Under the pieces are notes generated by a model. The model was not told the origin of the DNA and made no database searches. It was given only the letters and a program-made list of their open reading frames with translations. A DNA stretch of 64,000 bases. It comes from a virus (lineage: Duplodnaviria; Heunggongvirae; Uroviricota; Caudoviricetes). Shown here in pieces: positions 13,417 through 57,705 of this stretch. The translations under genes were made by a program, and so were the position numbers. Numbering within the stretch: the stretch's first letter is position 1; the number at the start of each line of letters is the position of its first letter. Location of the stretch: the IMG/VR virus record IMGVR_UViG_2974697560_000001; one strand, 5' to 3'.

Positions 13417-13487
13417 GCATCGGTAGTTTAATGGTAGAACGAGTGACTTCCAATCATTCAGCGCGGGTTCGATTCCCGCTCGGTGCT
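13417..13487 (+). tRNA. tRNA-Gly (TCC)
   Basis: hand-folded cloverleaf; acceptor GCATCGG/TCGGTGC, D GTTT-AATGGTA-GAAC, anticodon loop CTTCCAA, T-arm GCGGG-TTCGATT-CCCGC. Confidence 0.75.
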
Positions 13488-13619
13488 CCGAAGACCTGGA
13501 TTCGCCTCTGTTGACTTTCGCCAACATGCTACCAGCAAAATGTAGTCTAGAATACATTTTGGCCTCTGGCCCGGAGGCGTTATGAGAGTGACAGACTCTT
13601 TAACTGTCAGGGCATTCAT

Positions 13620-13693
13620 TCCCCCGTGGTCCGTGTGGCTGGCCACTGAGACTCTGAATCTCAGGTACGTAGGTTCGACTCCTGCCGGGGGAG
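13620..13693 (+). tRNA. tRNA-like element, non-canonical D arm; possible anticodon CTG (Gln)
   Basis: acceptor TCCCCCG/CGGGGGA, loop CTCTGAA, T-arm GTAGG-TTCGACT-CCTGC; D stem does not fold normally. Confidence 0.3.
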
Positions 13694-13821
13694 CTGGTCC
13701 GACTTCGTGATATCGGTGACAATAACTGATTCGGAACGCATAATAACCATGGTAAAAGTGCGGAAAGAGGATGTAACGATAATCGGAAGCGATGGGTAAA
13801 ACCTCCTCGGACCGACAACAT

Positions 13822-13892
13822 ATGCCCTAAGTGTTACGGTAGCACGTTGGTCTCCAAAACCAAAAGCGTAGGTTCGACTCCTACAGGGCGTG
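13822..13892 (+). tRNA. tRNA-Trp (CCA)
   Basis: acceptor ATGCCCT/AGGGCGT, D GTGT-TACGGTA-GCAC, loop CTCCAAA, T-arm GTAGG-TTCGACT-CCTAC. Confidence 0.65.
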
Positions 13893-14098
13893 CTTTGACG
13901 AAACTCGCCTTAGAAGGCATGAACGATGGTGGTCAGCATAAACCATTTAGTAAGCCCGAGAGTAGTATTGAAAGGACATCGGCCATGCTGAGGTCGTCCG
14001 AGTAGAGAAGTAGGGGATAAGGTCCCGAATGGCGTCAAAACCATTTAACAAACGCCCGGTATCGAAAGGTACCGGGCACAATCATATCCGGAGGAAAC

Positions 14099-14551
14099 AT
14101 GGGATATTACACTGACTTCACACTGAGTGCTGAGGGTCGTGGCCCAGTATATGATAAGATGATGAACCAGAAGGACAAGATTATCTTCTCCAGTGGAGAC
14201 TATGATTTCGTCCTCGGAGAGTGGCTTGATAGAAACTACTCCCAGAACCTAAAGTGGTATGACTGGGAGAAGGACATGAAGCAGCTCTCACGTGAGTGGC
14301 CAAACGTCCTGTTCATCCTTGAGGGTGACGGTGAAGAGGCTGGTGACCTCTGGAAGGCATGGTTCCGAAATGGAGAAATGCACAAGCTAGAGGCTAAGAT
14401 TATCTTTGAGACAATCAAGCCAGACCTGGACAAACATCTTCCATACGACCACAGCCTTGACAAGCGTCTTGGTGAGCAGTACAAGAAGGAGCTTGAGGCA
14501 GAGATTGCCAAGCTACAGGGTCAGCTTGACGAACTGAACCAGAAGGAGTAA
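14099..14551 (+). CDS. hypothetical protein
   Basis: ORF track 150 aa; ggagg RBS. Confidence 0.5.
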   Translation: MGYYTDFTLSAEGRGPVYDKMMNQKDKIIFSSGDYDFVLGEWLDRNYSQNLKWYDWEKDMKQLSREWPNVLFILEGDGEEAGDLWKAWFRNGEMHKLEAKIIFETIKPDLDKHLPYDHSLDKRLGEQYKKELEAEIAKLQGQLDELNQKE

Positions 14552-14768
14552 AGTGGCTCTTACAGGCAGCAAGGGGCAGTGTTGGTTCCAACGCTGTTCA
14601 AGAAAAGCCACTACCACGATTAGGTACCACAACAAATCTGTGGTAGTCTGTGAAGGACACAAGAACCTGGACGGCAAGGGCTGTCCACCAAGTAGGCGAA
14701 AGCCGAAGAGTTGACACTCACCAGAGCGTCTGCTAAGATTAAGTACAACGGCAGGGAAACCTGCTTAT

Positions 14769-14840
14769 CAGGTGCGGGGAAGATGGTAATCCGTTGGTTT
14801 TGGAAACCTAAGACACCCGGTTCGATTCCGGGGCACCTGA
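14769..14840 (+). tRNA. tRNA-like; degenerate Pro(TGG)-like copy
   Basis: acceptor CAGGTGC/GCACCTG, loop TTTGGAA, T-arm CCCGG-TTCGATT-CCGGG; anticodon and D stems carry mismatches. Confidence 0.35.
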
Positions 14841-14844
14841 CTTC

Positions 14845-14919
14845 CGGGATATAGCTCAGCTTGGTCAGAGCGCTGCATTTGGGATGCAGAAGTCGCTGGT
14901 TCGAATCCAGTTATCCCGA
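14845..14919 (+). tRNA. tRNA-Pro (TGG)
   Basis: CGGGATA-TA-GCTC-AGCTTGGTCA-GAGC, loop TTTGGGA, T-arm GCTGG-TTCGAAT-CCAGT. Confidence 0.85.
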
Positions 14920-14920
14920 C

Positions 14921-15000
14921 TGGTTCCATAGGATAATGACTAATCCGCCTGTACGTGGAGTACAGGTAATACCGGTTAAATTCCGGACTAGGAACCACCA
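14921..15000 (+). tRNA. tRNA-like with unusual arms (anticodon-loop CGTGGAG, T-loop TTAAATT)
   Basis: acceptor TGGTTCC/GGAACCA, D GGAT/ATCC; an extra nucleotide and G33 depart from the canonical form. Confidence 0.25.
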
Positions 15001-15167
15001 ACTTTTGGGTCGATTGAGACACGGTTATCTTACACAATGGATACTAGGTTCGATTCCTAGGGGTGCTATAAAAGGCGCTCTGTAAAGTCATCTCAGATGT
15101 GTGTGGTAGGATGACATAAGGTACTACACTCTCTCCGTTCTCGCCACTTACCTAAAGGACTTACATT

Positions 15168-15689
15168 ATGACGGTACTCCTAAGAACAATTCATGGTTCG
15201 CATCTGTACGGTCTCGCTCACGCAGGTTCGGATAAAGACATCTACGAAGTAGTTGCTACGAAGCGGACCAAGCGGAAGCGCAATATTAAGCAAACCATCG
15301 TGAATGGAATTGACAAGACGGTCGTTGACCTCTCGACATTCATGCACATGGTTGACGAATGCGTACCTCAAGCACTTGAAGCGCTATGGACGCCGGTACC
15401 AGATGTGGATGAAATCCACCAGTTCCGGACACAATATCGAGTGAATCGCGCCAAGATGAAGGAAGTATACATTCGTACTGCTCTGAACTTCGCCAAGCAT
15501 GAAGACGTAAAACGAAAGCGACATGCTATTCGTCTCCTTCTAAACCTTGGTGAGGCCCTGGAATACGGTAAGTTTAATCCAAGGCTGTCCACTATGGACA
15601 AGTTCATTCTCCGCTCATCACTCGGAGAATCTGGAGCATATGAGGATGTCTTTCTGGGCGTTCTCGATGAAGTGCAAAAGTGGGTCTGA
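15168..15689 (+). CDS. minimal nucleotidyltransferase (Pol-beta/MNT-like fold)
   Basis: HGSHLYGLAHAGSDKDIY matches the GS...SDxD NTase signature. Confidence 0.55.
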   Translation: MTVLLRTIHGSHLYGLAHAGSDKDIYEVVATKRTKRKRNIKQTIVNGIDKTVVDLSTFMHMVDECVPQALEALWTPVPDVDEIHQFRTQYRVNRAKMKEVYIRTALNFAKHEDVKRKRHAIRLLLNLGEALEYGKFNPRLSTMDKFILRSSLGESGAYEDVFLGVLDEVQKWV

Positions 15690-15702: not shown

Positions 15703-15779
15703 TGGGGCGTATACCCTCACTCTGATAAAGTGTAGAAAGGTTAATCGGTTACATGTGGGTTCAATTCCCACCGTCCCAA
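15703..15779 (+). tRNA. tRNA-like element; T-arm and acceptor are clear, D/anticodon fold unresolved (possible GAT loop)
   Basis: acceptor TGGGGCG/CGTCCCA, T-arm GTGGG-TTCAATT-CCCAC, CACT-CTGATAA-AGTG hairpin. Confidence 0.3.
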
Positions 15780-17917: not shown

Positions 17918-17991
17918 GCGCCAGTAGCATAACGGTTCAATGCAGTAGGCTTATATCCTACCGAGAGAAGGTTCAATTCCTTCCTGGCGTA
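17918..17991 (+). tRNA. tRNA-Ile (TAT), AUA decoder
   Basis: GCGCCAG-TA-GCAT-AACGGTTCA-ATGC, anticodon arm GTAGG-CTTATAT-CCTAC, T-arm GAAGG-TTCAATT-CCTTC. Confidence 0.7.
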
Positions 17992-18168
17992 CTTGTGGGT
18001 CGAAGATGATTGTTTATCTTCAAATCAGCGTGTTGGGGGTTCGAATCCTCCCTGGGGACTTCATTGTCCTCGGTAACTCAATGGCAGAGTAGCTGACATT
18101 GCCCGAATGGGCTAGACGATTGTCACACCTTATCCACATTACAAACAACTACTAACTAAGGAATAACC

Positions 18169-18511: not shown

Positions 18512-18596
18512 GGAAGGTAAGCGATTGGTTAGCAGGAGTCTTGGAAAGGCTCTAAGGGTGTTACAGCCCGGCAGGGTTCAATTCCCTGGCCTTCCG
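18512..18596 (+). tRNA. tRNA-Ser (GGA), long variable arm
   Basis: acceptor GGAAGGT/GCCTTCC, anticodon arm GAGTC-TTGGAAA-GGCTC, variable GGGT-GTTACA-GCCC, T-arm CAGGG-TTCAATT-CCCTG. Confidence 0.7.
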
Positions 18597-18609
18597 CAGG
18601 AGGTGCAAT

Positions 18610-18837: not shown

Positions 18838-18923
18838 GGAGGCACGCATTGGAGTGCTTATAGGTCTTGAAAACCTTGAAGGTGTAGTGATATGCCGTGG
18901 GGGTTCGACTCCCTCTGTCTCCG
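18838..18923 (+). tRNA. tRNA-Ser (TGA), long variable arm
   Basis: acceptor GGAGGCA/TGTCTCC, loop CTTGAAA, T-arm GGGGG-TTCGACT-CCCTC. Confidence 0.65.
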
Positions 18924-18969
18924 CTCCCGCCCGGTACTAATTGTGCCGGGCATTTTCTATAGGAGAGAT

Positions 18970-22028: not shown

Positions 22029-22104
22029 GCGTCTGTAGTATAGTCTGGTCTAATGCACCTGATTGTCAATCAGGAAATCGCGGGTTCGAATCCCGTCAGG
22101 CGCG
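22029..22104 (+). tRNA. tRNA-Asp (GTC)
   Basis: acceptor GCGTCTG/CAGGCGC, anticodon arm CCTGA-TTGTCAA-TCAGG, T-arm GCGGG-TTCGAAT-CCCGT. Confidence 0.75.
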
Positions 22105-22105
22105 C

Positions 22106-22468: not shown

Positions 22469-22539
22469 CCCGGCGTGGTGTAATGGAAACACACTTCGTT
22501 GTCAGCGAAATGTCGAGGGTTCGATTCCCTTCGTCGGGA
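22469..22539 (+). tRNA. tRNA-Asp (GTC), second copy with a slightly irregular anticodon stem
   Basis: acceptor CCCGGCG/CGTCGGG, D GTGT-AATGGAAAC-ACAC, loop TTGTCAG, T-arm GAGGG-TTCGATT-CCCTT. Confidence 0.55.
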
Positions 22540-22557
22540 CTTAAGGAGGCAAGACCA

Positions 22558-22728: not shown

Positions 22729-22734
22729 AAGCTT

Positions 22735-22806
22735 GCGGGTCGAAAGAGTAAGTCGGTTATCTTCCTTTGAATAAGAAACAGGTAGGTTCGAATCCTACGT
22801 AGCCCA
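22735..22806 (+). tRNA. tRNA-like; T-arm GTAGG-TTCGAAT-CCTAC plus a 9-nt-loop hairpin; acceptor unresolved
   Basis: canonical T-arm, other arms degenerate. Confidence 0.25.
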
Positions 22807-22849
22807 AGGCACGGGTGACTCCGACTCTCACCTATATATCCGCACTAGT

Positions 22850-23617: not shown

Positions 23618-25270
23618 ATGTCAAACGCACTTAACACTGCTGCCAAGGGTCTGAACAAGACTCCTCAGTCTCAGAAGGCTAAGGCAGGTCAGGTAAAGAA
23701 CAACGCTGGTGGATTCGTCTTCCAGGTTTCTGACCAGGCTCGCCTAGAGCGATTCCTGATTCTGGGTGTTGATGGTGGCACATATTACGTCAAGGAGAGC
23801 ACTCACGCTCGTTCCAACGTACAATTCCTCAACGAGATGATTGAGCGAGACGAAGCCTCTGTACTGAACACCATTGTGGACGTGTCCGTCAATGGTCGTG
23901 CATACAAGCAGTCTCCTGCCCTGTTCGCTCTAGCCTCTGTCATTGCCAATGGTAAGGACAAGCAGGCGGTCAAGGCGGTATTCAATCGTGTCGTTCGTAC
24001 AGGCACTCACCTGTATGAGCTTCTGAACTACCTTACTTCAATGAACGTTGGATGGGGTCGTTCAAAGCGAGAGATTGTTGCTTCTTGGTTCGACCGAGAT
24101 GCTGACAAGCTGGCTTACCAGGCGGTCAAGTACCGTTCTCGTAAGTTTGGTGAGCAGACTTGGACGCTCCGAGACGTAATGCGTCTTTCCCACCCACGAG
24201 ATGTGAACACATCTGTTGCAGATTTCGTTCTCGGCAAGCCTCACGATGCTACCGATGACCTTCGGGTTATCGAGGGCTTCAAGAAGATGCAGAGGGCTCA
24301 GTCTGTCGAGGACGTTCACAGCGTTCTCCGTGAGTACGAGATACTTTCATGGGAGACAATCCCAACTCAGTTCCTCAAGGACGTGAGTGTATGGAAGCGA
24401 ATCTTCGCTAACGGACAGCTCCGTGGCCAGGCTCTTGTTCGAAACATCACTCGCCTTGCGCGAATTGGTGCTTTCCAGGACATGCGCTTTGCTGCTGCGT
24501 ATGCAGGACAGCTCACAAATCAGGAGATGATTGTACAGACTCGTCTGCACCCAATCAACTTCCTGAATGCGTCTGTCGTGTACAACGAAGGCCAGATGAA
24601 GACCGTAAGGGACCGCTGGGGCTTCGAGCGCGAGGAGCGTGTAAAGGACTGGACAACTGAGAGTGTTATTGCGGATGCCCTCAATGAGGGATTCCACAAG
24701 GCATTCAAGGCTGTCGAGCCTGCCGGTAAGCGAACGATGCTGGCTCTGGATGTATCAGGCTCCATGAGTGCAAAGGCTAACGGTCTCGACCTTAGCTGTG
24801 CTCAGGTTTCTGCTGCAATGTCTATGGCCATTGCTCGTACCGAGCCTGCTCACATCATCCGTGGATTCACGTCCAATGGATATGGCTGGTCTGGTCGCAA
24901 CAGTGACCTCACCGACCTTGGTATCAGCGCTAAGACAGACCTTGCTACGGCAATGCGTAATGTCCAGCGTCATAACTGGGGCGGTACGGACTGTAGCCTT
25001 CCAATGCGTTGGGCTCTGGACCGTGGAATTGAAGTAGACACGTTCATCATTATCACCGATAATGACACGTGGGCTGGTGAAATCCACCCATTCCAGGCGC
25101 TCAAGGAGTACCGTAAGAAGACTGGCATTCCAGCTCGTCTGGCAGTTCTGGGAGTTCAGGCAACTGAATTCACCATCGCTGACCCAAGCGATGCAGGAAT
25201 GATGGACTTCGTAGGGTTTGACAGCAATGCACCTCGCGTGCTGGCTGACTTCTCCGCAGGTCGCATCTGA
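23618..25270 (+). CDS. rsr: Ro60-related protein (TROVE domain) with C-terminal vWA/MIDAS domain
   Basis: GGFVFQVSDQARLERFLILGVDGGTYYVKE TROVE N-terminus; LALDVSGSM MIDAS; 550 aa. Confidence 0.85.
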   Translation: MSNALNTAAKGLNKTPQSQKAKAGQVKNNAGGFVFQVSDQARLERFLILGVDGGTYYVKESTHARSNVQFLNEMIERDEASVLNTIVDVSVNGRAYKQSPALFALASVIANGKDKQAVKAVFNRVVRTGTHLYELLNYLTSMNVGWGRSKREIVASWFDRDADKLAYQAVKYRSRKFGEQTWTLRDVMRLSHPRDVNTSVADFVLGKPHDATDDLRVIEGFKKMQRAQSVEDVHSVLREYEILSWETIPTQFLKDVSVWKRIFANGQLRGQALVRNITRLARIGAFQDMRFAAAYAGQLTNQEMIVQTRLHPINFLNASVVYNEGQMKTVRDRWGFEREERVKDWTTESVIADALNEGFHKAFKAVEPAGKRTMLALDVSGSMSAKANGLDLSCAQVSAAMSMAIARTEPAHIIRGFTSNGYGWSGRNSDLTDLGISAKTDLATAMRNVQRHNWGGTDCSLPMRWALDRGIEVDTFIIITDNDTWAGEIHPFQALKEYRKKTGIPARLAVLGVQATEFTIADPSDAGMMDFVGFDSNAPRVLADFSAGRI

Positions 25271-27375: not shown

Positions 27376-27446
27376 GCCCCTATAGTCTAAGGGTAGGATA
27401 CAAGATTCTCAATCTTGTGGTCGGAGTTCAATTCTCCGTAGGGGTA
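27376..27446 (+). tRNA. tRNA-Glu (CTC)
   Basis: acceptor GCCCCTA/TAGGGGT, D GTCT-AAGGGTA-GGAT, anticodon arm CAAGA-TTCTCAA-TCTTG, T-arm CGGAG-TTCAATT-CTCCG. Confidence 0.75.
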
Positions 27447-27447
27447 C

Positions 27448-27703: not shown

Positions 27704-27777
27704 GCCCCGTTGGTCTAGCGGTTAGGATACCGGACTTTCAATCCGTGTGAACGTCGGTTCGAATCCGACACGGGGTA
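27704..27777 (+). tRNA. tRNA-Glu (TTC)
   Basis: acceptor GCCCCGT/ACGGGGT, D GTCT-AGCGGTTA-GGAT, loop CTTTCAA, T-arm GTCGG-TTCGAAT-CCGAC. Confidence 0.7.
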
Positions 27778-27789
27778 CGTAAGATTTAG

Positions 27790-27860
27790 GCCCGGTTAGC
27801 TCAATGGGAGAGCGGCGCGTTTACACCGCGTATACGGGGGTTCGATTCCCTCACTGGGTA
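27790..27860 (+). tRNA. tRNA-Val (TAC)
   Basis: acceptor GCCCGGT/ACTGGGT, D GCTC-AATGGGA-GAGC, anticodon arm GCGCG-TTTACAC-CGCGT, T-arm GGGGG-TTCGATT-CCCTC. Confidence 0.75.
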
Positions 27861-27865
27861 CGTAT

Positions 27866-27942
27866 GGGTTTGATTGGTATGACGTTACGGAAAGCCGACA
27901 ATGGACCCGTAGCCGCAGAGGGTTCGAATCCCTCCAAATCCA
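27866..27942 (+). tRNA. tRNA-like, 77 nt; no canonical anticodon arm; a TACGG...CCGTA stem encloses 16 nt
   Basis: acceptor GGGTTTG/CAAATCC, T-arm GAGGG-TTCGAAT-CCCTC. Confidence 0.3.
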
Positions 27943-28014: not shown

Positions 28015-28089
28015 GCGCCGTTGACGGGAACTGGCATACCTAGTTGACTTAGAATCAACTGCTTGGGAGTTCGACTCTCCCACGGCGTA
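28015..28089 (+). tRNA. tRNA with anticodon TAG (Leu by anticodon) but a class-I short variable arm
   Basis: acceptor GCGCCGT/ACGGCGT, anticodon arm GTTGA-CTTAGAA-TCAAC, variable TGCTT, T-arm GGGAG-TTCGACT-CTCCC. Confidence 0.55.
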
Positions 28090-28228
28090 CTCCATAACTA
28101 CAAAGACAAGGATGCACATGGCAGCCTGCCCAAAGGGTGGTAAGCACGAATGGAAGATGTGGTCTGGAAAGTATCGTTGTCGCAAGTGTGGTGAAACAAG
28201 TAAGATACAGCCTACATAGGTTGTTTAT

Positions 28229-28302
28229 GCGTCGGTAGCCCAATGGCAGGAGGCACCAGTCTTAGGAACTGGACAGTGTGAGTTCGAGTCTCACCCGGCG
28301 TA
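28229..28302 (+). tRNA. tRNA with anticodon TAG (Leu by anticodon), class-I architecture, second copy
   Basis: acceptor GCGTCGG/CCGGCGT, D GCC-CAATGGCAGGA-GGC, anticodon arm CCAGT-CTTAGGA-ACTGG, T-arm GTGAG-TTCGAGT-CTCAC. Confidence 0.6.
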
Positions 28303-28356
28303 CTTTGATGGTAAACGCGATGCCATCGAATGCACACAGGGTCGCTCCCAGTGTGA

Positions 28357-28477
28357 GGAACGTAGTTTAATGGTAAAACCGTGAAATGCGCTGTCGAACG
28401 AGAAGTGCTGCCGAGCTAAAGGCGGGTCTTCTGCTAGTAGATAACAGAGTAGCAGTTGTCGGTTCGATTCCGACCGT
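28357..28477 (+). tRNA. interrupted tRNA-like gene: 5' half (acceptor + Gly-like D arm) and 3' half (T-arm + acceptor) separated by an insert of about 80 nt
   Basis: AGGAACG-TA-GTTT-AATGGTA-AAAC ... GTCGG-TTCGATT-CCGAC-CGTTCCG; acceptor complementarity 6 of 7. Confidence 0.3.
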
Positions 28478-28624
28478 TCCGCTAGCCTGCGCTAGATGCA
28501 GGAATGTAAGTCGGCAAGGGAGTGTACAATCCCAAACCGCATTTCTCAACGGCCTTGCAAGGGGCATCAAAGCAACAGGGTGAGAGTGTCTTGGCTGTTC
28601 CGACTCATAACTGGAACCTCCACA

Positions 28625-28695
28625 ATCCGTAGTGGTGAAATGGTATCACATGGCCTTGCCAAGGCTAAAGCGCGAGTTCGATTCTCGTCTACGGG
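28625..28695 (+). tRNA. tRNA-Gly (GCC)
   Basis: acceptor TCCGTAG/CTACGGG, D GTGA-AATGGTA-TCAC, anticodon arm TGGCC-TTGCCAA-GGCTA, T-arm GCGAG-TTCGATT-CTCGT. Confidence 0.75.
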
Positions 28696-28710
28696 ACTTG
28701 GGAACTGACA

Positions 28711-28797
28711 TGGAACTGGCTGAGTCATGACCAGCACGCAATGGTGCGATAGCGGCCGATAAACCGTCAATTCTGGGTTCGAATCCCGGCAGTTCCC
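28711..28797 (+). tRNA. tRNA-like, 87 nt, class-II length; anticodon unresolved
   Basis: acceptor GGAACTG/CAGTTCC (exact), D-like GCTG-AGTCATGAC-CAGC, T-arm CTGGG-TTCGAAT-CCCGG. Confidence 0.3.
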
Positions 28798-28803: not shown

Positions 28804-28876
28804 GCCCTGGTAGCGTAGTGGATAACGCGGCTGTCTTCTAAACAGTTACAGGCAGGTTCGATTCCTGTCCAGGGTA
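28804..28876 (+). tRNA. tRNA-Arg (TCT)
   Basis: acceptor GCCCTGG/CCAGGGT, D GCGT-AGTGGATA-ACGC, anticodon arm GCTGT-CTTCTAA-ACAGT, T-arm GCAGG-TTCGATT-CCTGT. Confidence 0.75.
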
Positions 28877-28959
28877 CGTTATGAAAATGCTCGGTAGGAA
28901 AGTCTGGAGAGGCCAGACGTTCGAAGACTCTCCAGTCAAAAATAAAATTTGGAGGCGTC

Positions 28960-29568: not shown

Positions 29569-29595
29569 CAACTCCTGCGCAGGGAGGTGTTAAAT

Positions 29596-29808: not shown

Positions 29809-29862
29809 ACGTTGGGTTAGGGAACGCACACCTGGCGAGGTGCCCGCCCAGCTCCACTTAAA

Positions 29863-31567: not shown

Positions 31568-31594
31568 CTCCAACACAACAACGCAAGGATAAAA

Positions 31595-41884: not shown

Positions 41885-41941
41885 CTTAAGACTTGGCCCC
41901 AAGAGGCAACCGATGGTCACCGGGATGCATACCGCCCATTG

Positions 41942-42023
41942 GACCTTATCTAGGTACCACGTCTATGCAATCGACGGATTGAGCACATAGACAATGGGGT
42001 AGGTTCAAATCCTACTGGGGTCC
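41942..42023 (+). tRNA. tRNA-like, 82 nt: paired acceptor and T-arm, with an internal 7-bp hairpin instead of canonical D/anticodon arms
   Basis: acceptor GACCTTA/TGGGGTC, T-arm GTAGG-TTCAAAT-CCTAC. Confidence 0.25.
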
Positions 42024-42120
42024 ACTATGTTGGAAACTATTCATTCGAAGAGTGGAAGGAGCGTAATGATTTACGACCCTGGTTAGTGTAACTACACTAA
42101 CTTTGAAGGAGTGAATTATT

Positions 42121-43041: not shown

Positions 43042-44142
43042 ATGAAGTTCACCAAGATTTTCTCTCAGGACTTGCTTGACCAGATGGTCAACGAGGGCTT
43101 TGTTCGGGTGCAGACTCATCCGGTTCTCCCTCTGCGAATCCTGAACTACTCCGAGAAGGCGCAGTTCGCTGGCAAGTGGAACGCATGTACGCTTGCTTGT
43201 CGTGGCCTTATCATTGACGAGTTTGACAACGTCATTGCTCGTCCGTTTGAGAAGTTCTTCAACATGGGGGACTCTCATGCTGCTGACATTGACTGGAACG
43301 CTCCGGTTGAGGTTACGGACAAGAAGGACGGCTCTATGGGCATCCTTTACTCCGTAATGCCTTACAGTGACGCGATTCCGCCTTACGGATTCCAGTACGG
43401 AATTGCTACGCGAGGCTCTTTCCAGTCTGACCAGGCAATCCACGCCACGAAGCTGTGGCTGGAGCGCTACAAGAACACTGCCGTCCCTCACGACTGGACG
43501 TTCATTTTCGAGATTGTCTACCCTGACAACCGAATCGTCCTGGACTACGGGGACATGGATGACCTTATCCTTCTGGGTGCGGTAAACAAGGAGCACGGCT
43601 ACGTGTATGGTCCTCGTGAGGCTTCGGTTTTGCTGGATTGGCAGGGGCCGGTGACCGAGGTGTTTGATTACAAGAACATTCACGAGGCTGTTGGTGCGGA
43701 CTACCGTCCCAACGCTGAGGGTCTTGTAATCCGCTCTGGCTCTAAGATGGTCAAGCTAAAGCAGGCTGACTATGTTGAGCTGCACCGACTGATTTCAATG
43801 CTTTCAGAGCGCTCTGTATGGAGTCAGCTCACTGAGGGCAAGACGATTCTGGAGATTTGTGAGGCTCTGCCTGACGAGTTCCACCAGTTCGTCAAGGATG
43901 TCGGTGGCAAGCTGCTCAGCGACTACGAGGAGATTGAAATTAAGGTGCGTGGAATCTTCCACAACCTTCTTTCCTCAATGGATGAGGGCTTCACACGACG
44001 TGACTTCGCAATGAAGGCCAACGGTGTGGACCTCTACCGTAGCCACATGTTCAACCTGCTTGACGGCAAGAGCATCGATGAGCTAATCTGGAAGCAGCTC
44101 AAGCCCGCTGCAAAGACGGAGGATGGCTACCCTGTTGGGTAG
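43042..44142 (+). CDS. RNA ligase, T4 Rnl1 (RnlA)-like
   Basis: CRGLIIDEFDNVIARPFEKFFNMGD aligns to the Rnl1 N-terminal signature; TDKKDGSMG is a KxDG adenylation motif; 366 aa. Confidence 0.8.
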   Translation: MKFTKIFSQDLLDQMVNEGFVRVQTHPVLPLRILNYSEKAQFAGKWNACTLACRGLIIDEFDNVIARPFEKFFNMGDSHAADIDWNAPVEVTDKKDGSMGILYSVMPYSDAIPPYGFQYGIATRGSFQSDQAIHATKLWLERYKNTAVPHDWTFIFEIVYPDNRIVLDYGDMDDLILLGAVNKEHGYVYGPREASVLLDWQGPVTEVFDYKNIHEAVGADYRPNAEGLVIRSGSKMVKLKQADYVELHRLISMLSERSVWSQLTEGKTILEICEALPDEFHQFVKDVGGKLLSDYEEIEIKVRGIFHNLLSSMDEGFTRRDFAMKANGVDLYRSHMFNLLDGKSIDELIWKQLKPAAKTEDGYPVG

Positions 44143-46496: not shown

Positions 46497-46578
46497 GCGC
46501 CCATGGTGGAATGGTAGACACACTAGACTGAGACTCTAGGCTCGAATGAGCGTCCGGGTTCGACTCCCGGTGGGCGTA
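46497..46578 (+). tRNA. tRNA-Leu (GAG), class II
   Basis: acceptor GCGCCCA/TGGGCGT, anticodon arm CTAGA-CTGAGAC-TCTAG, variable GCTC-GAAT-GAGC, T-arm CCGGG-TTCGACT-CCCGG. Confidence 0.75.
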
Positions 46579-46579
46579 C

Positions 46580-47015: not shown

Positions 47016-47086
47016 ACCCGCTTAGCTCAATGGTAGAGCGCCTGCTCGACACGCAGGAGACATGAGTTCAATTCTCTTAGTGGGTA
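47016..47086 (+). tRNA. tRNA-Val (GAC) with C at position 33
   Basis: acceptor ACCCGCT/AGTGGGT, D GCTC-AATGGTA-GAGC, anticodon arm CCTGC-TCGACAC-GCAGG, T-arm ATGAG-TTCAATT-CTCTT. Confidence 0.65.
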
Positions 47087-47103
47087 CTCCCGAACAAAGG
47101 AAC

Positions 47104-47511: not shown

Positions 47512-47587
47512 GGCTCTGTAGCAGAATCAGGTATATGCGCCGGTCTCAAACACCGGGTCAATGTGGGTTCGAGTCCCATCAGGGCTA
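47512..47587 (+). tRNA. tRNA with anticodon CAA (Leu by anticodon) but class-I architecture
   Basis: acceptor GGCTCTG/CAGGGCT, anticodon arm CCGGT-CTCAAAC-ACCGG perfect, variable GTCAAT, T-arm GTGGG-TTCGAGT-CCCAT. Confidence 0.55.
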
Positions 47588-47588
47588 C

Positions 47589-47821: not shown

Positions 47822-47904
47822 GGAAGGTGAGCGAGAGGTCTCGCAGGTAGTTTGCTAAACTGCTGGGTTGTAAAAGGCTCGGGGTTCGAATCCTCCTCCT
47901 TCCG
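47822..47904 (+). tRNA. tRNA-Ser (GCT), class II
   Basis: acceptor GGAAGGT/TCCTTCC (6 of 7), D GCG-AGAGGTCT-CGC, anticodon arm GTAGT-TTGCTAA-ACTGC, long variable arm, T-loop TTCGAAT. Confidence 0.6.
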
Positions 47905-47921
47905 CATAGTATAATAGGTCT

Positions 47922-55837: not shown

Positions 55838-56064
55838 GAGAACTAGTTTGCGATAGCTGTGGGGGTCAGAGATTCAGCCTTGTCTCTGCGCAGTCAAAAC
55901 TACTCAAGAGCATGACTTTCAATCTGTGCAACGATTGTAAGGAAAGTGGCAAAGAGCCACGATGGCTCATTGTATTGGCGGCACGGGACGGTCAGGATGT
56001 TTCTCACTGGCTCTCAAACCAGCTCTACGATGGAGAGGCAATAAAGCAGGAGGATTTGAATTAA
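55834..56064 (+). CDS. hypothetical Cys-containing protein
   Basis: ORF track 76 aa. Confidence 0.4.
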   Translation: MRELVCDSCGGQRFSLVSAQSKLLKSMTFNLCNDCKESGKEPRWLIVLAARDGQDVSHWLSNQLYDGEAIKQEDLN

Positions 56065-56070
56065 GCCTCC

Positions 56071-56128
56071 AGGCCGGGTATACTAGGCACATCTAGGGAA
56101 CTATGGGGTTCGAATCCCTACCGGCCGC
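56071..56128 (+). tRNA. mini tRNA-like element (58 nt): T-arm TGGGG-TTCGAAT-CCCTA with a 6 of 7 paired acceptor but too short for D + anticodon arms
   Basis: AGGCCGG...CCGGCCG. Confidence 0.2.
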
Positions 56129-56154
56129 AATACAATCCCCTTGAGGGGAGGAAC

Positions 56155-56403
56155 GTGTACGTTGAAAGCGATGAAGATGTATCTCAGTGTATAGAGGATT
56201 TGACGAAGGAGATATGGAGCACCATTAAGATGGTGCTAAAGTCTCAAGCAACATCAGAGGAAATTTCTGATGCAGCTTCCAGGGCTAAATTTCTTCGTCT
56301 GTACATTGAACGGTATCGCTTCAAGAGGTTTGACTCACTTACTGAGACCGAGCTTTGGTTGGCTCAGGAAGTCGCAGATGCAGTAGAAGACTTGATTGAT
56401 TGA
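56155..56403 (+). CDS. hypothetical protein (GTG start)
   Basis: ORF track 82 aa; gaggggagg RBS. Confidence 0.4.
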   Translation: MYVESDEDVSQCIEDLTKEIWSTIKMVLKSQATSEEISDAASRAKFLRLYIERYRFKRFDSLTETELWLAQEVADAVEDLID

Positions 56404-56434
56404 CTTTTAACTCATCTGTGATTACAATTCAGGT

Positions 56435-56836
56435 ATGTCCAGGATATCAACAGCACTAGTGAAGATTTTCAAGCATCCTCTAGTTTTCATAGAGGTAATC
56501 ATGGCTGTAGGTTTGCTGGTCTCAGGATTGTACGCAGTGGGTCCTTGGTATGTTGCCAGTGCAACAACACCAATTGGTCAGGCAATTGATTCCGTATTCG
56601 TAAGAATGGGAATCGGTGCCTTCTATACCATAAGTGCGAGTGTATCTCTATGGGGAGCATTCAAAAACGACGGTGTGGACAGGACAGCAGGTTTGTTTCT
56701 GATGTTCCTCTCCTATTCTTTCATGACCATCCTAAGATGGTTGGCAATCGGCTTTACACCGCTAACTTGGGTATTCAGTCTTACCTTGGCGCTCATCGTG
56801 GCATTCCTATACTTTAGGATAAGGTTGCTGAAATAA
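56435..56836 (+). CDS. multi-pass membrane protein (holin-like size)
   Basis: 133 aa with about four hydrophobic helices. Confidence 0.5.
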   Translation: MSRISTALVKIFKHPLVFIEVIMAVGLLVSGLYAVGPWYVASATTPIGQAIDSVFVRMGIGAFYTISASVSLWGAFKNDGVDRTAGLFLMFLSYSFMTILRWLAIGFTPLTWVFSLTLALIVAFLYFRIRLLK

Positions 56837-57145
56837 ATGCCCGAGATTACTACGGCTTGGATAGCCTTGATTGGTACAGTGCTGGGGGGTGTTGGACTCA
56901 AGTTTGTCGAACACTGGCTCAGTCGTAGCAAGGTTCGGGACGACACAGCCTCTCAGCTCAGAAATGAATTGAGAACTGAAATTCAGGGACTCAAAACTGA
57001 GCTGAACAATGTCGAATCCGACCTAGACAAGTGGCGTGGAAAGTATTACGAATTGATGGACAACTTTATCAAAGTCAAGAGTGAACTTGAGACGGCCATG
57101 CGGCAGCTACAAGCACAGAACAACAACACGCAACCCCCTGGCTGA
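56837..57145 (+). CDS. membrane-anchored coiled-coil protein
   Basis: N-terminal TM helix then coiled coil; gene adjacent to the holin-like protein. Confidence 0.5.
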   Translation: MPEITTAWIALIGTVLGGVGLKFVEHWLSRSKVRDDTASQLRNELRTEIQGLKTELNNVESDLDKWRGKYYELMDNFIKVKSELETAMRQLQAQNNNTQPPG

Positions 57146-57175
57146 TGCCAGGGGCGTTGTGCTATCGTAAGGAGC

Positions 57176-57373
57176 ATGATGATGGAAGCAGTGATGGAAC
57201 GTCCTCTTCGCAGGACCGAGGACAGATGTGATAAGTGCAACGCTCAGGCGTTCATGATTGCAGAGAAGGGCGCGCTGGCGTTGCTGTTCTGTGGTCATCA
57301 TGGCAAGCAGTACAGTCAGTCACTTGAGCAGCAAGGATGGCAACTGCTTGACTTCACCGACGAGATTGGCTAG
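57176..57373 (+). CDS. small zinc-finger protein
   Basis: CDKC...CGHH. Confidence 0.4.
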   Translation: MMMEAVMERPLRRTEDRCDKCNAQAFMIAEKGALALLFCGHHGKQYSQSLEQQGWQLLDFTDEIG

Positions 57374-57382
57374 AGTGGAGAC

Positions 57383-57613
57383 ATGGACACAGAGAAGCGG
57401 TTCCTCGTAGGAGATGTCGTTCGTATCTCGGGCTCGCAGAACGGCAACGACAATTGGATTGGTTTTCTGGCTATGGTTGAGCCGTGGCCAATTGATGAGG
57501 AGCAGTTCGTGGATGGACTTCTTCACAACTGGCTCCTTCCCATCTGTGAGCGTCCTGACGGATTCGAGTACAGTCCGTTCATGTGGCCCACACGAAACCT
57601 CGAAAAGATGTAA
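57383..57613 (+). CDS. hypothetical protein
   Basis: ORF track 76 aa. Confidence 0.45.
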   Translation: MDTEKRFLVGDVVRISGSQNGNDNWIGFLAMVEPWPIDEEQFVDGLLHNWLLPICERPDGFEYSPFMWPTRNLEKM

Positions 57614-57625
57614 TGCTCTAGGGCC

Positions 57626-57705
57626 TTCGGGCCATTCCCCAGTTGCTCTGTTTGGTAGGGGCCGCCTGACTTTGAATCAGGACTAGCGACGTAGGTTCGA
57701 ATCCT
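57626..57705 (+). tRNA. tRNA-Gln (TTG) with a 9-nt variable region
   Basis: acceptor TCCCCAG/CTGGGGA exact, D GCTC-TGTTTGGTAG-GGGC, anticodon arm CCTGA-CTTTGAA-TCAGG, T-arm GTAGG-TTCGAAT-CCTGC. Confidence 0.6.

What the first reader, a model, noticed from the sequence alone, without database searches (positions are those of the whole stretch)
13417..57705. Dispersed array of about 39 canonical tRNA genes in a phage
Hand-folding gives tRNAs for Gly(TCC,GCC), Trp, Pro, Ile(TAT,GAT), Ser(GGA,TGA,GCT), Asp(x2), Glu(CTC,TTC), Val(TAC,GAC), Ala(TGC,GGC, both with G3:U70), Lys(CTT x2, TTT), Asn(x2), Arg(TCT,CCT,TCG,ACG), Met/CAT(x2), Tyr, His, Phe, Thr(TGT,GGT), Leu(GAG), Gln(TTG) and several atypical ones. 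They lie in sub-clusters between small + strand genes, with promoters and terminators of their own. That is a near-complete decoding set carried by what otherwise looks like a phage (terminase, HNH, lysin, holin-like genes). Cys was not found, and Gln(CTG) only as a doubtful copy.
Basis: seen in the sequence. Interest (0 to 1): 0.7.

Follow-up and report, generated by a model that had tools for sequence, protein, structure and literature searches.

The report
Known phage tRNA gene array
The window is part of the published Streptomyces phage Samisti12, whose 43 tRNA genes plus one tmRNA gene are real and already described, so the finding is correct but not new; a few unannotated Y-RNA-like and tRNA-like RNAs among them are the only fresh item.

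Summary
ARAGORN finds 42 tRNAs and a tmRNA, all on the + strand between 13417 and 57716. Rfam supports 38 tRNAs and the tmRNA.

The window is 100% identical to Streptomyces phage Samisti12 (MF347639.1, cluster BE1). GenBank annotates 43 tRNAs and the tmRNA here. Hughes et al. 2018 reported 43-48 tRNAs per BE1 phage. deCarvalho et al. 2023 showed that BE codon usage fits the phage tRNAs better than the host's. The finding is therefore already known.

- tRNA-Cys(GCA) is present, with an unusual 8/4 fold.
- Leu(TAG) x2, Leu(CAA), a second Tyr and the tmRNA were missed.

My additions:
- The set has 35 anticodons covering 20 amino acids.
- It lacks only a reader for TTA and a G34 tRNA-Pro.
- In-frame TTA is almost absent: 3 seen, about 130 expected.
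- G-ending codons are favoured only where the phage has a C34 tRNA.
- Consensus promoters number 57 on the + strand and 3 on the - strand.

Noticed in passing: four unannotated paralogous Y-RNA-like elements lie near a Ro60 gene. Several conserved tRNA-like RNAs show compensatory changes. RlaP, Rnl1-type ligase and Pnkp genes lie in the same region.

The parts
13417..13489 (+). tRNA-Gly(TCC)
   Evidence: ARAGORN; Rfam 65.5 bits; GenBank gp99
13620..13694 (+). tRNA-Gln(CTG), atypical D arm
   Evidence: ARAGORN; GenBank gp100; no Rfam hit even at E<=1; Mildred21 homolog 54 bits
13822..13893 (+). tRNA-Trp(CCA)
   Evidence: (56.9 bits)
14769..14841 (+). tRNA-Pro(TGG)
   Evidence: (47.8 bits)
14845..14920 (+). 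tRNA-Pro(TGG)
   Evidence: (69.4 bits)
17918..17992 (+). tRNA-Ile(TAT)
   Evidence: (65.3 bits)
18512..18597 (+). tRNA-Ser(GGA), long variable arm
   Evidence: ARAGORN; clean class II cloverleaf; GenBank gp112; no Rfam hit
18838..18924 (+). tRNA-Ser(TGA), long variable arm
   Evidence: ARAGORN; GenBank gp114; best Rfam match is tRNA-Sec at 38.5 bits, below threshold
22029..22105 (+). tRNA-Asp(GTC)
   Evidence: (64.9 bits)
22469..22540 (+). tRNA-Asp(GTC)
   Evidence: (56.9 bits)
27376..27447 (+). tRNA-Glu(CTC)
   Evidence: (64.4 bits)
27704..27778 (+). tRNA-Glu(TTC)
   Evidence: (60.1 bits)
27790..27861 (+). tRNA-Val(TAC)
   Evidence: (64.4 bits)
28015..28090 (+). tRNA-Leu(TAG)
   Evidence: (41.2 bits)
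28229..28303 (+). tRNA-Leu(TAG)
   Evidence: (55.2 bits)
28626..28697 (+). tRNA-Gly(GCC)
   Evidence: (60.1 bits)
28804..28877 (+). tRNA-Arg(TCT)
   Evidence: (61.2 bits)
29497..29569 (+). tRNA-Ala(TGC), G3:U70
   Evidence: (58.3 bits)
29736..29810 (+). tRNA-Lys(CTT)
   Evidence: (62 bits)
30668..30744 (+). tRNA-Asn(GTT)
   Evidence: (36.2 bits)
31496..31568 (+). tRNA-Asn(GTT)
   Evidence: (69.4 bits)
33227..33299 (+). tRNA-Arg(CCT)
   Evidence: (64.4 bits)
33544..33619 (+). tRNA-Ile(GAT)
   Evidence: (67.1 bits)
33623..33695 (+). tRNA-Ala(GGC), G3:U70
   Evidence: (65 bits)
33914..33987 (+). tRNA-Lys(CTT)
   Evidence: (63.7 bits)
34106..34181 (+). tRNA-Lys(TTT)
   Evidence: (56.9 bits)
34185..34258 (+). 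tRNA-Arg(TCG)
   Evidence: (59.1 bits)
35516..35588 (+). tRNA with CAT anticodon (Met; elongator-like)
   Evidence: (62.8 bits)
35589..35660 (+). tRNA with CAT anticodon; 1:72 mismatch and G-rich anticodon stem (initiator-like, inferred)
   Evidence: (41.7 bits)
36288..36370 (+). tRNA-Tyr(GTA), long variable arm
   Evidence: (45.8 bits)
36426..36497 (+). tRNA-Tyr(GTA), short form
   Evidence: GenBank gp171; Rfam 32.0 bits; not called by ARAGORN
36500..36572 (+). tRNA-His(GTG)
   Evidence: (44.3 bits)
36640..36712 (+). tRNA-Phe(GAA)
   Evidence: (56.8 bits)
37296..37370 (+). tRNA-Cys(GCA) with 8-bp acceptor, 5-bp D stem with 4-nt loop, 6-bp anticodon stem and 4-bp T stem
   Evidence: ARAGORN; fold; best Rfam match is tRNA-Sec at 40.4 bits, below threshold; GenBank gp176
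37420..37495 (+). tRNA-Thr(TGT)
   Evidence: (62.7 bits)
37587..37660 (+). tRNA-Thr(GGT)
   Evidence: (53.4 bits)
37829..37902 (+). tRNA-Arg(ACG)
   Evidence: (48.8 bits)
38753..39019 (+). tmRNA, tag peptide ANSKFAFALAA
   Evidence: ARAGORN; Rfam RF00023 95.1 bits; GenBank gp184
41115..41190 (+). tRNA-Pro(TGG), degenerate (mismatch in the anticodon stem)
   Evidence: ARAGORN; GenBank gp191; no Rfam hit; fold; Mildred21 annotates 'tRNA-OTHER' at the syntenic position (homology not tested: no BLAST hit)
46497..46579 (+). tRNA-Leu(GAG)
   Evidence: (56.1 bits)
47016..47087 (+). tRNA-Val(GAC)
   Evidence: (64.2 bits)
47512..47588 (+). tRNA-Leu(CAA)
   Evidence: (53.8 bits)
47822..47905 (+). tRNA-Ser(GCT)
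   Evidence: ARAGORN; GenBank gp211; best Rfam match is tRNA-Sec at 36.4 bits, below threshold
57636..57716 (+). tRNA-Gln(TTG)
   Evidence: (39.9 bits)
13327..13412 (+). Y1: unannotated Y-RNA-like element. 5' UGUGGGUCGAA, 9-bp terminal stem GAAAGUUGG/CCGACUUUC and an inner hairpin. It starts at the predicted start site of promoter 13292-13320
   Evidence: (stem 85.6% paired; covariation 0.316 vs 0.187 +/- 0.033; 0 of 500 shuffles)
15004..15147 (+). Y2: unannotated Y-RNA-like element. 5' UUUGGGUCGA, long-range stem GAGAcACGG/CCGUUCUC, T-arm-like hairpin at 15044
   Evidence: (A-U to G-C compensatory change in relatives)
17994..18138 (+). Y3: unannotated YrlA-like RNA. 5' GUCGAAG motif, 12-bp terminal stem, then T-like, middle and D-like hairpins
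   Evidence: Rfam RF02553 33.1 bits (gathering 69), E=1e-5 in the local scan; fold; compensatory changes including phage Faust; homologs score 36-41 bits; no annotation in 40 matching phage records (38 of them covering >=80% of the query)
22734..22846 (+). Y4: unannotated Y-RNA-like element. 5' UUGCGGGUCGAAAG, stem GAG..GUCGG/CCGAC..CUC, T-arm-like hairpin at 22782. It ends about 770 nt upstream of the Ro60 gene
   Evidence: (G-C, A-U and U-A at one stem pair); homolog annotated as a 72-nt 'tRNA-Ser(tga)' in Mildred21
15703..15779 (+). Unannotated tRNA-like RNA directly after the RlaP gene: 7-bp acceptor-like stem, T arm, hairpin with loop CUGAUAA
   Evidence: Rfam tRNA 30.8 bits; Mildred21 homolog 30.3 bits; two compensatory pairs
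27865..27942 (+). Unannotated tRNA-like RNA: 8-bp terminal stem, one central hairpin, T arm
   Evidence: 6 pairs with changes on both sides, 10 sequences
28356..28482 (+). Unannotated 127-nt tRNA-like RNA: acceptor, D and T arms canonical, with a 74-nt conserved domain in place of the anticodon arm
   Evidence: Rfam tRNA 35.7 bits; alignment A2 and RNAalifold give 7 pairs with changes on both sides; ARAGORN intron mode gives inconsistent anticodons; the Mildred21 homolog is annotated as a 107-nt 'tRNA-Tyr'
28712..28796 (+). Unannotated element with a 7-bp terminal stem and a T arm
   Evidence: (mascRNA-like, 26 bits); found only in the closest relatives
41751..41884 (+). Unannotated long tRNA-like element. 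It begins 12 nt after the -10 of promoter 41710-41739 and contains an internal promoter-like site at 41814-41842
41940..42024 (+). Unannotated tRNA-like RNA: 8-bp terminal stem, central hairpin, T arm
   Evidence: fold z = -3.5; 5 pairs with changes on both sides; overlaps a 129-nt 'tRNA-OTHER' in Mildred21
56072..56126 (+). T-arm-like hairpin in an intergenic gap (weak candidate)
   Evidence: fold not better than shuffles
15168..15689 (+). gp106 nucleotidyltransferase, RlaP family (RNA-repair-associated Pol-beta-type)
   Evidence: Pfam PF10127 26.1 bits, cut-off 23; noted as 'tRNA nucleotidyltransferase' in Mildred21
23618..25270 (+). gp126 Ro60 ortholog (TROVE + vWA domains)
   Evidence: Pfam PF05731 E=6.5e-31 and PF25045 E=4.6e-59
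43042..44142 (+). gp197 RNA ligase, T4 Rnl1 type
   Evidence: Pfam PF09511 54.9 bits
44677..45582 (+). gp200 polynucleotide kinase-phosphatase (Pnkp)
   Evidence: Pfam PF25109 181.8 bits and PF13671 89.9 bits

Best explanation
The feature is the tRNA/tmRNA gene array of Streptomyces phage Samisti12, a cluster BE1 phage of the genus Samistivirus. It comprises 43 tRNA genes with 35 different anticodons for all 20 amino acids, plus one tmRNA. The genes lie in small groups among short + strand genes in a region packed with host-type (sigma-70-like) promoters.

The most likely working is as follows. Host RNA polymerase transcribes the genes from these promoters. Host RNase P and 3'-end enzymes cut the tRNAs out, and CCA is added afterwards because none of the genes encodes CCA. 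The tRNAs then supply the ribosome with readers for the codons the phage uses.

The phage is 49% G+C with GC3 of 0.53, whereas its host is about 71-72% G+C. Its own tRNA set therefore makes its translation largely independent of a host pool tuned to G/C-ending codons, and of any loss of host tRNAs during infection.

Shown here: gene identity, anticodons, promoter-like sites, and the fit between phage codon usage and the phage tRNA set. Inferred: expression, processing, charging by host synthetases, and the benefit to the phage.
For: Identity. The window is 100% identical to MF347639.1, where 43 tRNAs and a tmRNA are annotated. ARAGORN and Rfam agree.

Published. BE1 phages carry 43-48 tRNAs and 1 tmRNA, at least one per amino acid, with G+C about 50% against a host about 20% higher (PMC5764925). 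The capsid-gene tRNA adaptation index (tAI) of BE phages fits the phage tRNA set better than the host's, p = 2.6e-8 (PMC10690885).

My analysis of 127 CDS and 16,849 codons:
- By standard wobble rules the set leaves only TTA unread. CCC and CCT depend on U34 of tRNA-Pro(UGG), which is present three times.
- In-frame TTA occurs 3 times against about 130 expected from position-specific base composition. Out of frame it occurs 131 and 182 times.
- G-ending codons dominate where the phage has a C34 tRNA: Lys 0.91, Gln 0.79, Glu 0.60, AGR 0.53, TTR 0.98. They are a minority in seven of the eight boxes without one, range 0.09-0.41; the exception is Leu CTR at 0.63 (Mann-Whitney p = 0.003).

Promoters: 57 consensus sites on the + strand and 3 on the - strand, many 30-100 nt upstream of RNA genes.

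Conservation: the same tRNAs sit in the same order in Mildred21, the most divergent of the eight BE1 phages in Hughes et al. 2018.
Against: No expression, processing or charging data exist here. Five or six of the 43 are atypical: there is no Rfam hit for 13620, 18512 and 41115, and 37296 has an 8/4 fold, so some may be inactive or have another role. The set also includes tRNAs for codons the host reads well (GNN for C-ending codons, CNN for AAG, GAG and CAG). Simple filling of host gaps therefore cannot be the whole story. The fit between codon usage and tRNA set does not say which came first. Host codon usage and host tRNA genes were not computed here; I rely on the two papers for them.
Confidence: 0.85

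Rival explanations
1. The array is mainly a counter-measure against loss of host tRNAs. Phage or host nucleases, or host anticodon nucleases acting as defence, deplete the host pool. The phage replaces it with its own near-complete set and keeps that set in working order with Pnkp, an Rnl1-type ligase, an RlaP nucleotidyltransferase, Ro60 and a tmRNA.
For: The set is nearly complete rather than limited to rare codons. T4-type healing and sealing enzymes (Pnkp, Rnl1 family), RlaP and Ro60 lie inside the same region. Hughes et al. name this possibility. By established knowledge, T4 Pnkp and Rnl1 repair tRNA-Lys cut by the PrrC anticodon nuclease.
Against: No tRNA-targeting nuclease was identified in the window or in the host. 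No test was made of whether phage anticodon loops differ from host ones at known cleavage sites. The strong match between phage codon usage and phage tRNAs is explained more simply by codon supply. The two ideas do not exclude each other.
Confidence: 0.35
2. The tRNAs and tRNA-like elements also act as punctuation. RNase P and 3' processing at each of them would cut the long early transcripts into short mRNAs, some of them leaderless, as in mitochondria.
For: tRNAs sit 4-22 nt after stop codons in 18 of 26 cases. The next annotated start is 0 nt away in 4 cases and at most 20 nt away in 14 of 26. The zero gaps after Leu(CAA) and Gln(TTG) recur in Mildred21. Conserved tRNA-like elements without an anticodon arm keep their acceptor-like and T stems by compensatory changes. 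By established knowledge, leaderless mRNAs are common and well translated in actinobacteria.
Against: Start codons were chosen by annotators who avoid overlaps with tRNAs, so exact abutment may be an artefact of annotation. The many promoters argue that long polycistronic transcripts are not needed. There are no transcript-end data. Many of the small ORFs are unverified.
Confidence: 0.15
3. Many of the tRNA genes are non-functional passengers: decaying duplicates, captured host genes or former integration sites.
For: Several copies are degenerate (13620, 41115). There are about ten further tRNA-like remnants with only parts of a cloverleaf. Copy numbers differ between BE1 phages, 43-48.
Against: 38 of the 43 pass the Rfam tRNA threshold. 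Order and anticodons are conserved in Mildred21. Even the tRNA-like remnants keep their stems through compensatory changes. The phage's codon usage follows the set. The phage is lytic, with no integrase in the window.
Confidence: 0.05

Closest known systems
tRNA/tmRNA arrays of cluster BE1 Streptomyces phages (Hughes et al. 2018, PMC5764925; GenBank MF347639.1)
   Same: It is the same object. The sequence is 100% identical, with the same 43 tRNAs and tmRNA annotated.
   Different: Nothing differs for the array itself. The GenBank record does not annotate the Y-RNA-like and tRNA-like elements listed here.
Cluster C1 mycobacteriophages such as Bxz1 and ET08, which carry some 30 or more tRNAs, a tmRNA, a Ro60 ortholog and YrlA RNAs. 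The tRNA and tmRNA numbers are from my own knowledge; Ro60 and YrlA are from PMC4201824
   Same: A large lytic actinobacteriophage with a big tRNA set, a tmRNA, a Ro60 gene and YrlA-type RNAs on the same strand.
   Different: Different virus family and host. Here the phage is about 20% lower in G+C than its host. There are four paralogous Y-like elements, and they score below the Rfam YrlA threshold (33-41 bits against 69).
Phage T4 tRNA cluster with Pnkp and Rnl1 (my own knowledge of T4 biology)
   Same: Phage-encoded tRNAs occur together with a polynucleotide kinase-phosphatase and an Rnl1-family ligase.
   Different: T4 has 8 tRNAs in one cluster, whereas here 43 are dispersed in about 20 groups. 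No anticodon nuclease partner is known here.
YrlA / Y RNAs bound by Ro60 (Rfam RF02553; Chen et al. 2014, PMC4201824)
   Same: GNCGAAN0-1G motif at the 5' end, a long stem made by the two ends, T-like and D-like hairpins in YrlA order (element Y3), and the same strand and neighbourhood as a Ro60 gene.
   Different: Scores are below the gathering threshold. Three of the four elements have only a T-like hairpin or none. Their distance to the Ro60 gene is 0.8-10 kb, against the usual 4 kb or less. Binding to Ro60 is untested.

Membership tests
tRNA (Rfam RF00005) / canonical bacterial-type tRNA genes | Cloverleaf scoring at or above the family gathering score (29 bits) | tested here: met
   38 of the 43 annotated tRNAs pass: 34 and 4 more with permissive filters. 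The five that do not are 13620, 18512 and 41115 (no hit) and 18838, 37296 and 47822 (best hit is tRNA-Sec, below threshold). That makes six loci listed against five failing; 18838's Mildred21 homolog passes the tRNA model at 33.7 bits.
tRNA (Rfam RF00005) / canonical bacterial-type tRNA genes | An independent detector gives a 7-nt anticodon loop and an assignable anticodon | tested here: met
   ARAGORN of the 43. The 43rd (Tyr, 36426) is in GenBank and scores 32 bits in Rfam.
tRNA (Rfam RF00005) / canonical bacterial-type tRNA genes | Isotype identity elements (for example G3:U70 in tRNA-Ala) | tested here: met
   Both tRNA-Ala have G3:U70 (sequences). The other isotypes were not checked one by one. 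Isotype-specific tRNAscan-SE models were not available.
tRNA (Rfam RF00005) / canonical bacterial-type tRNA genes | Expression, CCA addition and aminoacylation | not testable with these tools
   None of the genes encodes CCA (3' flanks). Experiments are needed.
tmRNA (Rfam RF00023) | tRNA-like ends plus an internal tag reading frame, scoring above the gathering score (47 bits) | tested here: met
   95.1 bits over the full model. ARAGORN gives the tag ANSKFAFALAA*.
Cluster BE1 phage genome (Samistivirus samisti12) | Nucleotide identity to the type record | tested here: met
   100% over the 12.5 kb queried. The feature coordinates of the record coincide with ARAGORN's over the whole window.
YrlA / bacterial Y RNA (RF02553), for elements Y1-Y4 | Score at or above the gathering score (69 bits) | tested here: not met
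   Y3 scores 33.1 bits. Its homologs score 41.0, 39.6 and 36.5 bits. Y1, Y2 and Y4 have no hit.
YrlA / bacterial Y RNA (RF02553), for elements Y1-Y4 | GNCGAAN0-1G motif near the 5' end (PMC4201824) | tested here: met
   GUCGAACG (Y1), GUCGAAG (Y3) and GUCGAAAG (Y4). Y2 has GUCGAUUG here but GUCGAAAG or GUCGAAUG in relatives. GGGTCGAWNG occurs 6 times against 0.66 expected.
YrlA / bacterial Y RNA (RF02553), for elements Y1-Y4 | Long stem formed by the 5' and 3' ends | tested here: met
   Y1: 85.6% of cells paired, covariation above all 500 shuffles and all slid controls. Y2, Y3 and Y4: compensatory changes read from the alignments.
YrlA / bacterial Y RNA (RF02553), for elements Y1-Y4 | tRNA-like module with T and D hairpins flanking a third hairpin | tested here: inconclusive
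   Present and covarying in Y3. Only a T-like hairpin in Y2 and Y4, and none in Y1 (which would be YrlB-like).
YrlA / bacterial Y RNA (RF02553), for elements Y1-Y4 | Encoded near, and on the same strand as, a Ro60 ortholog | tested here: met
   The Ro60 gene is at 23618-25270. Y4 ends about 770 nt upstream of it. Y3, Y2 and Y1 lie 5.5, 8.5 and 10.2 kb upstream, all on the + strand.
YrlA / bacterial Y RNA (RF02553), for elements Y1-Y4 | Binding to Ro60 | not testable with these tools
   Needs immunoprecipitation or an in vitro binding assay.

The most novel reading that the evidence does not exclude
Besides the annotated tRNAs, BE1 phages may encode a family of four paralogous Y RNAs and at least four conserved tRNA-like non-coding RNAs that nobody has annotated. 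One of the latter is a 127-nt RNA with tRNA acceptor, D and T arms and a conserved 74-nt domain in place of the anticodon arm. Together with Ro60, an RlaP nucleotidyltransferase, an Rnl1-type ligase, Pnkp and the tmRNA, these would form a phage-borne system that supplies, checks and repairs tRNAs. The tRNA-like elements might also act as processing signals that release short-leader or leaderless mRNAs.
Probability: 0.4. Interest if true: 0.5.

Novelty: already known. Interest (0 to 1): 0.2.

Why it matters
The array itself adds nothing new. It is annotated in GenBank, was described in 2018, and its link to codon usage was analysed in 2023.

It remains a clean example of a virus that carries almost its whole decoding set while differing by about 20% G+C from its host. 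That makes it a good system for testing why phages carry tRNAs.

Two results here sharpen that test:
- The only sense codon with no possible phage reader, TTA, is the one read in Streptomyces solely by the bldA tRNA (PMC2000904; its developmental regulation is from my own knowledge). It is almost absent from phage genes.
- G-ending codons follow the presence of phage C34 tRNAs.

The unannotated Y-RNA-like and tRNA-like elements, if expressed, would extend phage Ro60/Y RNA biology to Streptomyces phages. They would also give candidates for Ro60 partners that can be tested directly.

Tried and rejected
1. Intron-containing tRNA reading of 28356-28482. Its Mildred21 homolog is annotated as a 107-nt tRNA-Tyr. 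ARAGORN in intron mode gives a different anticodon in almost every homolog (Thr, Arg, Arg, Ser, Cys, Phe and others), so this reading is rejected.

2. Promoter reading of the bipartite GGGTCGA...GGTTATC motif. The variable 'spacer' covaries with a segment 50-140 nt downstream, which a promoter would not require. The RNA-stem reading is preferred.

3. A circularly permuted YrlA as the reading of 28356-28482. The GUCGAACG motif lies on the wrong strand of the central arm for a simple permutation.

4. Terminators at each sub-cluster. Terminator-like sites are not enriched: 21 against 15.0 +/- 3.8.

5. Selenocysteine tRNAs. The three tRNA-Sec hits are below threshold and have Ser or Cys anticodons.

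6. Rfam hits to Plastid-ycf2 (- strand), mascRNA, permuted tmRNA, snoRNA and others. These are antisense or partial matches to tRNAs, or weak chance hits.

7. Autoregulation of Ro60 through a GGGUCGAAAG motif just upstream of its start codon. A related motif is conserved in relatives, but it overlaps the ribosome-binding region and a small hairpin. Left unresolved.

8. Not done:
- Host codon usage and the host tRNA set were not computed; the published analyses were used.
- No large protein searches or structure predictions were run, because Pfam was sufficient.
- One further RNA gene is implied by the paper's count of 45 RNAs against the 44 in the window. It lies outside the window and was not looked up.

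Full report

Yes. [quoted passage not shown] Rfam at gathering thresholds finds 34 tRNAs and the tmRNA at 95 bits.

With permissive filters, four more annotated tRNAs exceed the tRNA threshold. Three Ser/Cys tRNAs best match the tRNA-Sec model below its threshold. Three have no Rfam hit: Gln-CTG 13620, Ser-GGA 18512 and Pro-TGG 41115.

A plain T-arm motif (5-bp stem plus TTCRANN loop) occurs 50 times on the + strand and once on the - strand.

- tRNA-Cys(GCA) at 37296-37370.
- Two tRNA-Leu(TAG) and tRNA-Leu(CAA).
- The second tRNA-Tyr.
- The tmRNA (tag ANSKFAFALAA).

**2. What is it?**

A 12.5-kb piece of the window is 100% identical to Streptomyces phage Samisti12, MF347639.1. The window corresponds to bases 59895-123894 of that 133,710-bp genome. 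The phage belongs to cluster BE1 (Stanwilliamsviridae, Samistivirus) and its host is S. griseus ATCC 10137.

The GenBank record annotates 43 tRNAs and the tmRNA in this stretch, with coordinates that coincide with ARAGORN's. Hughes et al. 2018 (PMC5764925) described the eight founding BE1 phages, Samisti12 included. They reported:
- 43-48 tRNAs and one tmRNA per phage.
- At least one tRNA per amino acid.
- G+C about 50%, roughly 20% below the hosts.

They proposed codon supply or defence against tRNA degradation as the reason. deCarvalho et al. 2023 (PMC10690885) showed that capsid-gene codon usage across the BE cluster fits the phage tRNA set better than the host's (p = 2.6e-8). The finding is therefore correct and already known.

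**3. How does it most likely work?**

I counted codons in the 127 annotated CDS of the window: 16,849 codons, GC3 0.53, window G+C 0.49. The set has 35 distinct anticodons.

*Coverage.* In every four-codon box except Pro there is a U34 and a G34 tRNA. Pro has only UGG, in three copies. Arg has ACG, UCG, UCU and CCU. Lys, Glu and Gln have both U34 and C34 tRNAs. Ile has GAU and, unusually for bacteria, UAU.

By standard wobble rules the only sense codon with no possible phage reader is TTA. CCC and CCT depend on U34 four-way reading.

*TTA avoidance.* In-frame TTA occurs 3 times where about 130 are expected from position-specific base composition. The same trinucleotide occurs 131 and 182 times in the other two frames. 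One of the three TTA codons lies in an HNH endonuclease gene.

In Streptomyces, TTA is read only by the bldA tRNA (PMC2000904); that it is developmentally regulated is from my own knowledge. The phage therefore neither brings a reader for TTA nor uses it.

*G-ending codons.* These make up 0.53-0.98 of purine-ending codons where the phage has a C34 tRNA. In seven of the eight boxes where it has none they make up 0.09-0.41. The exception is Leu CTR at 0.63 (Mann-Whitney p = 0.003). Those G-ending codons are the ones a 72% G+C host favours.

The phage's codon usage thus follows its own tRNA set.

*Transcription.* Strict consensus promoters (TTGAC[AGT], 16-18 nt, TANNNT) number 57 on the + strand and 3 on the - strand. 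All lie between 11.6 and 62 kb, and many are 30-100 nt upstream of tRNAs or the tmRNA. The tool's own scan found 41 sites against 20.9 +/- 5.4 expected.

Terminator-like sites are not enriched: 21 against 15.0 +/- 3.8.

*Processing.* None of the genes encodes CCA, so CCA must be added after transcription.

*Shown and inferred.* Shown: genes, anticodons, promoter-like sites and the codon fit. Inferred: expression, processing, charging and benefit to the phage.

**4. Rival readings**

- *Replacement of a damaged or depleted host tRNA pool.* This is compatible with the above. The set is nearly complete. It also shares the region with T4-type Pnkp (181.8 bits), an Rnl1-family ligase (54.9 bits), an RlaP nucleotidyltransferase (26.1 bits) and a Ro60 ortholog (TROVE and vWA domains). 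No nuclease or cleavage evidence is available.
- *Punctuation.* tRNAs sit 4-22 nt after stop codons. The next annotated start is 0 nt away in four cases and at most 20 nt away in 14 of 26. These starts were chosen by annotators who avoid overlaps, so this reading is weak.
- *Non-functional passengers.* This does not fit the Rfam scores, the conservation in Mildred21 or the codon fit.

**5. Things found on the way**

*(a) Four unannotated paralogous elements.* They lie at 13327-13412 (Y1), 15004-15147 (Y2), 17994-18138 (Y3) and 22734-22846 (Y4).

They share a common plan:
- A 5' signature UGNGGGUCGAA.
- A long stem made by the 5' and 3' parts.
- The sequence UUAUCUU after the 5' strand of the stem.
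- In Y1, Y3 and Y4, a 3' tail CAC..UAUCCRCA.

A profile of the 5' part finds exactly these four sites, all on the + strand. That search is circular for these four, but it shows there are no further copies.

Y3 matches Rfam YrlA at 33 bits against a gathering score of 69. Its homologs in Braelyn, Targaryen and Faust score 41.0, 39.6 and 36.5 bits. It folds into a terminal stem plus T-like, middle and D-like hairpins. Each of these keeps pairing through compensatory changes, including in Faust, which belongs to another subfamily.

Chen et al. 2014 (PMC4201824) define YrlA by three features: a GNCGAAN0-1G motif near the 5' end, the tRNA-like module, and a location near Ro60 on the same strand. 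The motif is present in all four elements. GGGTCGAWNG occurs 6 times in the window against 0.66 expected.

The Y1 stem is 85.6% paired across ten relatives. Its covariation exceeds all 500 shuffles and all slid controls. Y1 begins at the predicted start site of a consensus promoter at 13292-13320.

None of the 40 phage records that match Y3 annotates anything there. These are best called Y-RNA-like: they fail the Rfam threshold, and binding to Ro60 is untested.

*(b) Conserved tRNA-like RNAs with compensatory changes.*
- 15703-15779, directly after the RlaP gene.
- 27865-27942.
- 41940-42024.
- 28356-28482, a 127-nt RNA with canonical acceptor, D and T arms and a 74-nt conserved central domain.

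In the 127-nt RNA, two internal loops of the central domain read GAA opposite AGUA, like loop E motifs. This is my reading of alignment A2 and was not tested.

Its Mildred21 homolog is annotated as a 107-nt tRNA-Tyr. The intron reading fails, however, because predicted anticodons differ between homologs.

*(c) tRNA-Cys.* It has an 8/4 acceptor/T-stem arrangement with a 5-bp D stem. It scores best against the tRNA-Sec model, as does its Mildred21 homolog.

**6. Verdict**

The most novel reading that the evidence leaves open is this: these phages carry an unrecognised set of Y RNAs and tRNA-like RNAs that works with Ro60 and RNA-repair enzymes around the tRNA array. This can be tested by small-RNA sequencing and Ro60 immunoprecipitation.

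Noticed in passing
window 13327-13412, 15004-15147, 17994-18138, 22734-22846 (+): Four unannotated paralogous Y-RNA-like elements. Each has 5' GGGUCGAA, a long terminal stem with covariation and UUAUCUU after the 5' strand of the stem; a CAC..UAUCCRCA tail follows in Y1, Y3 and Y4. One (Y3) matches Rfam YrlA below threshold. A Ro60 gene lies at 23618-25270.
   Followed up: yes
window 28356-28482 (+); homologs L006:15973-16079, L029:6240-6372 and others: A 127-nt tRNA-like RNA with canonical acceptor, D and T arms and a conserved 74-nt domain in place of the anticodon arm. That domain has two GAA/AGUA internal loops and a variable tip hairpin. It is unannotated here, is called tRNA-Tyr (107 nt) in Mildred21, and is not an intron-bearing tRNA.
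   Followed up: yes
window 15703-15779, 27865-27942, 28712-28796, 41751-41884, 41940-42024, 56072-56126 (+): Further unannotated elements, each with a terminal stem and a T arm but no normal cloverleaf. Three families (15703, 27865, 41940) keep their stems by compensatory changes in related phages. 41751-41884 starts at a predicted transcription start and holds an internal promoter-like site.
   Followed up: partly
all 127 CDS of the window; TTA codons in CDS 8155-8613, 12155-12676 and 62583-62717: In-frame TTA is almost absent: 3 against about 130 expected, and 131 and 182 in the other two frames. The phage has no tRNA-Leu(UAA). TTA is the codon read only by the bldA tRNA of Streptomyces.
   Followed up: yes
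window 37296-37370 (+): tRNA-Cys(GCA) has an 8-bp acceptor stem, a 4-bp T stem, a 5-bp D stem with a 4-nt loop and a 6-bp anticodon stem. It scores best against the tRNA-Sec model. The same holds in Mildred21 (L006:24406-24480).
   Followed up: partly
window 11614-62122: Consensus sigma-70-type promoters (TTGAC[AGT]-N16-18-TANNNT) number 57 on the + strand and 3 on the - strand, about one per 0.9 kb. There are none in the first 11.6 kb, which hold the replication genes.
   Followed up: partly
window 22105/22106, 27447/27448, 47588/47589, 57716/57717: Four annotated genes start on the base right after a tRNA as delimited by ARAGORN. In 14 of 26 cases the gap is at most 20 nt, leaving no room for a normal ribosome-binding site outside the tRNA.
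   Followed up: partly
window 23606-23615 (+), and the same place in 27 related loci: GGGTCGAAAG lies 3 nt upstream of the Ro60 start codon. Relatives have GGGCCGGUAA, GGGCCGGAAAGG or GGGCCGAAAGG there. It resembles the Y RNA 5' motif but overlaps the ribosome-binding region and a small hairpin.
   Followed up: partly
window 15168-15689, 43042-44142, 44677-45582 (+): An RlaP-family nucleotidyltransferase, an Rnl1-type RNA ligase and a kinase-phosphatase (Pnkp) lie inside the tRNA region. Together these are a T4-like tRNA healing and sealing kit plus a possible 3'-end-adding enzyme.
   Followed up: partly
window 17918-17992 and 35516-35660 (+): AUA is read by a tRNA-Ile with a UAU anticodon rather than the usual bacterial CAU/lysidine tRNA. 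Of the two adjacent CAT tRNAs, the second has a 1:72 mismatch and a G-rich anticodon stem, so it looks like an initiator.
   Followed up: no
L004:708-1151 (Wofford), L006:15401-15826 and 20931-21365 (Mildred21): HNH endonuclease genes are inserted between tRNA genes at different places in different BE1 phages. This suggests homing endonucleases help reshuffle the array.
   Followed up: no
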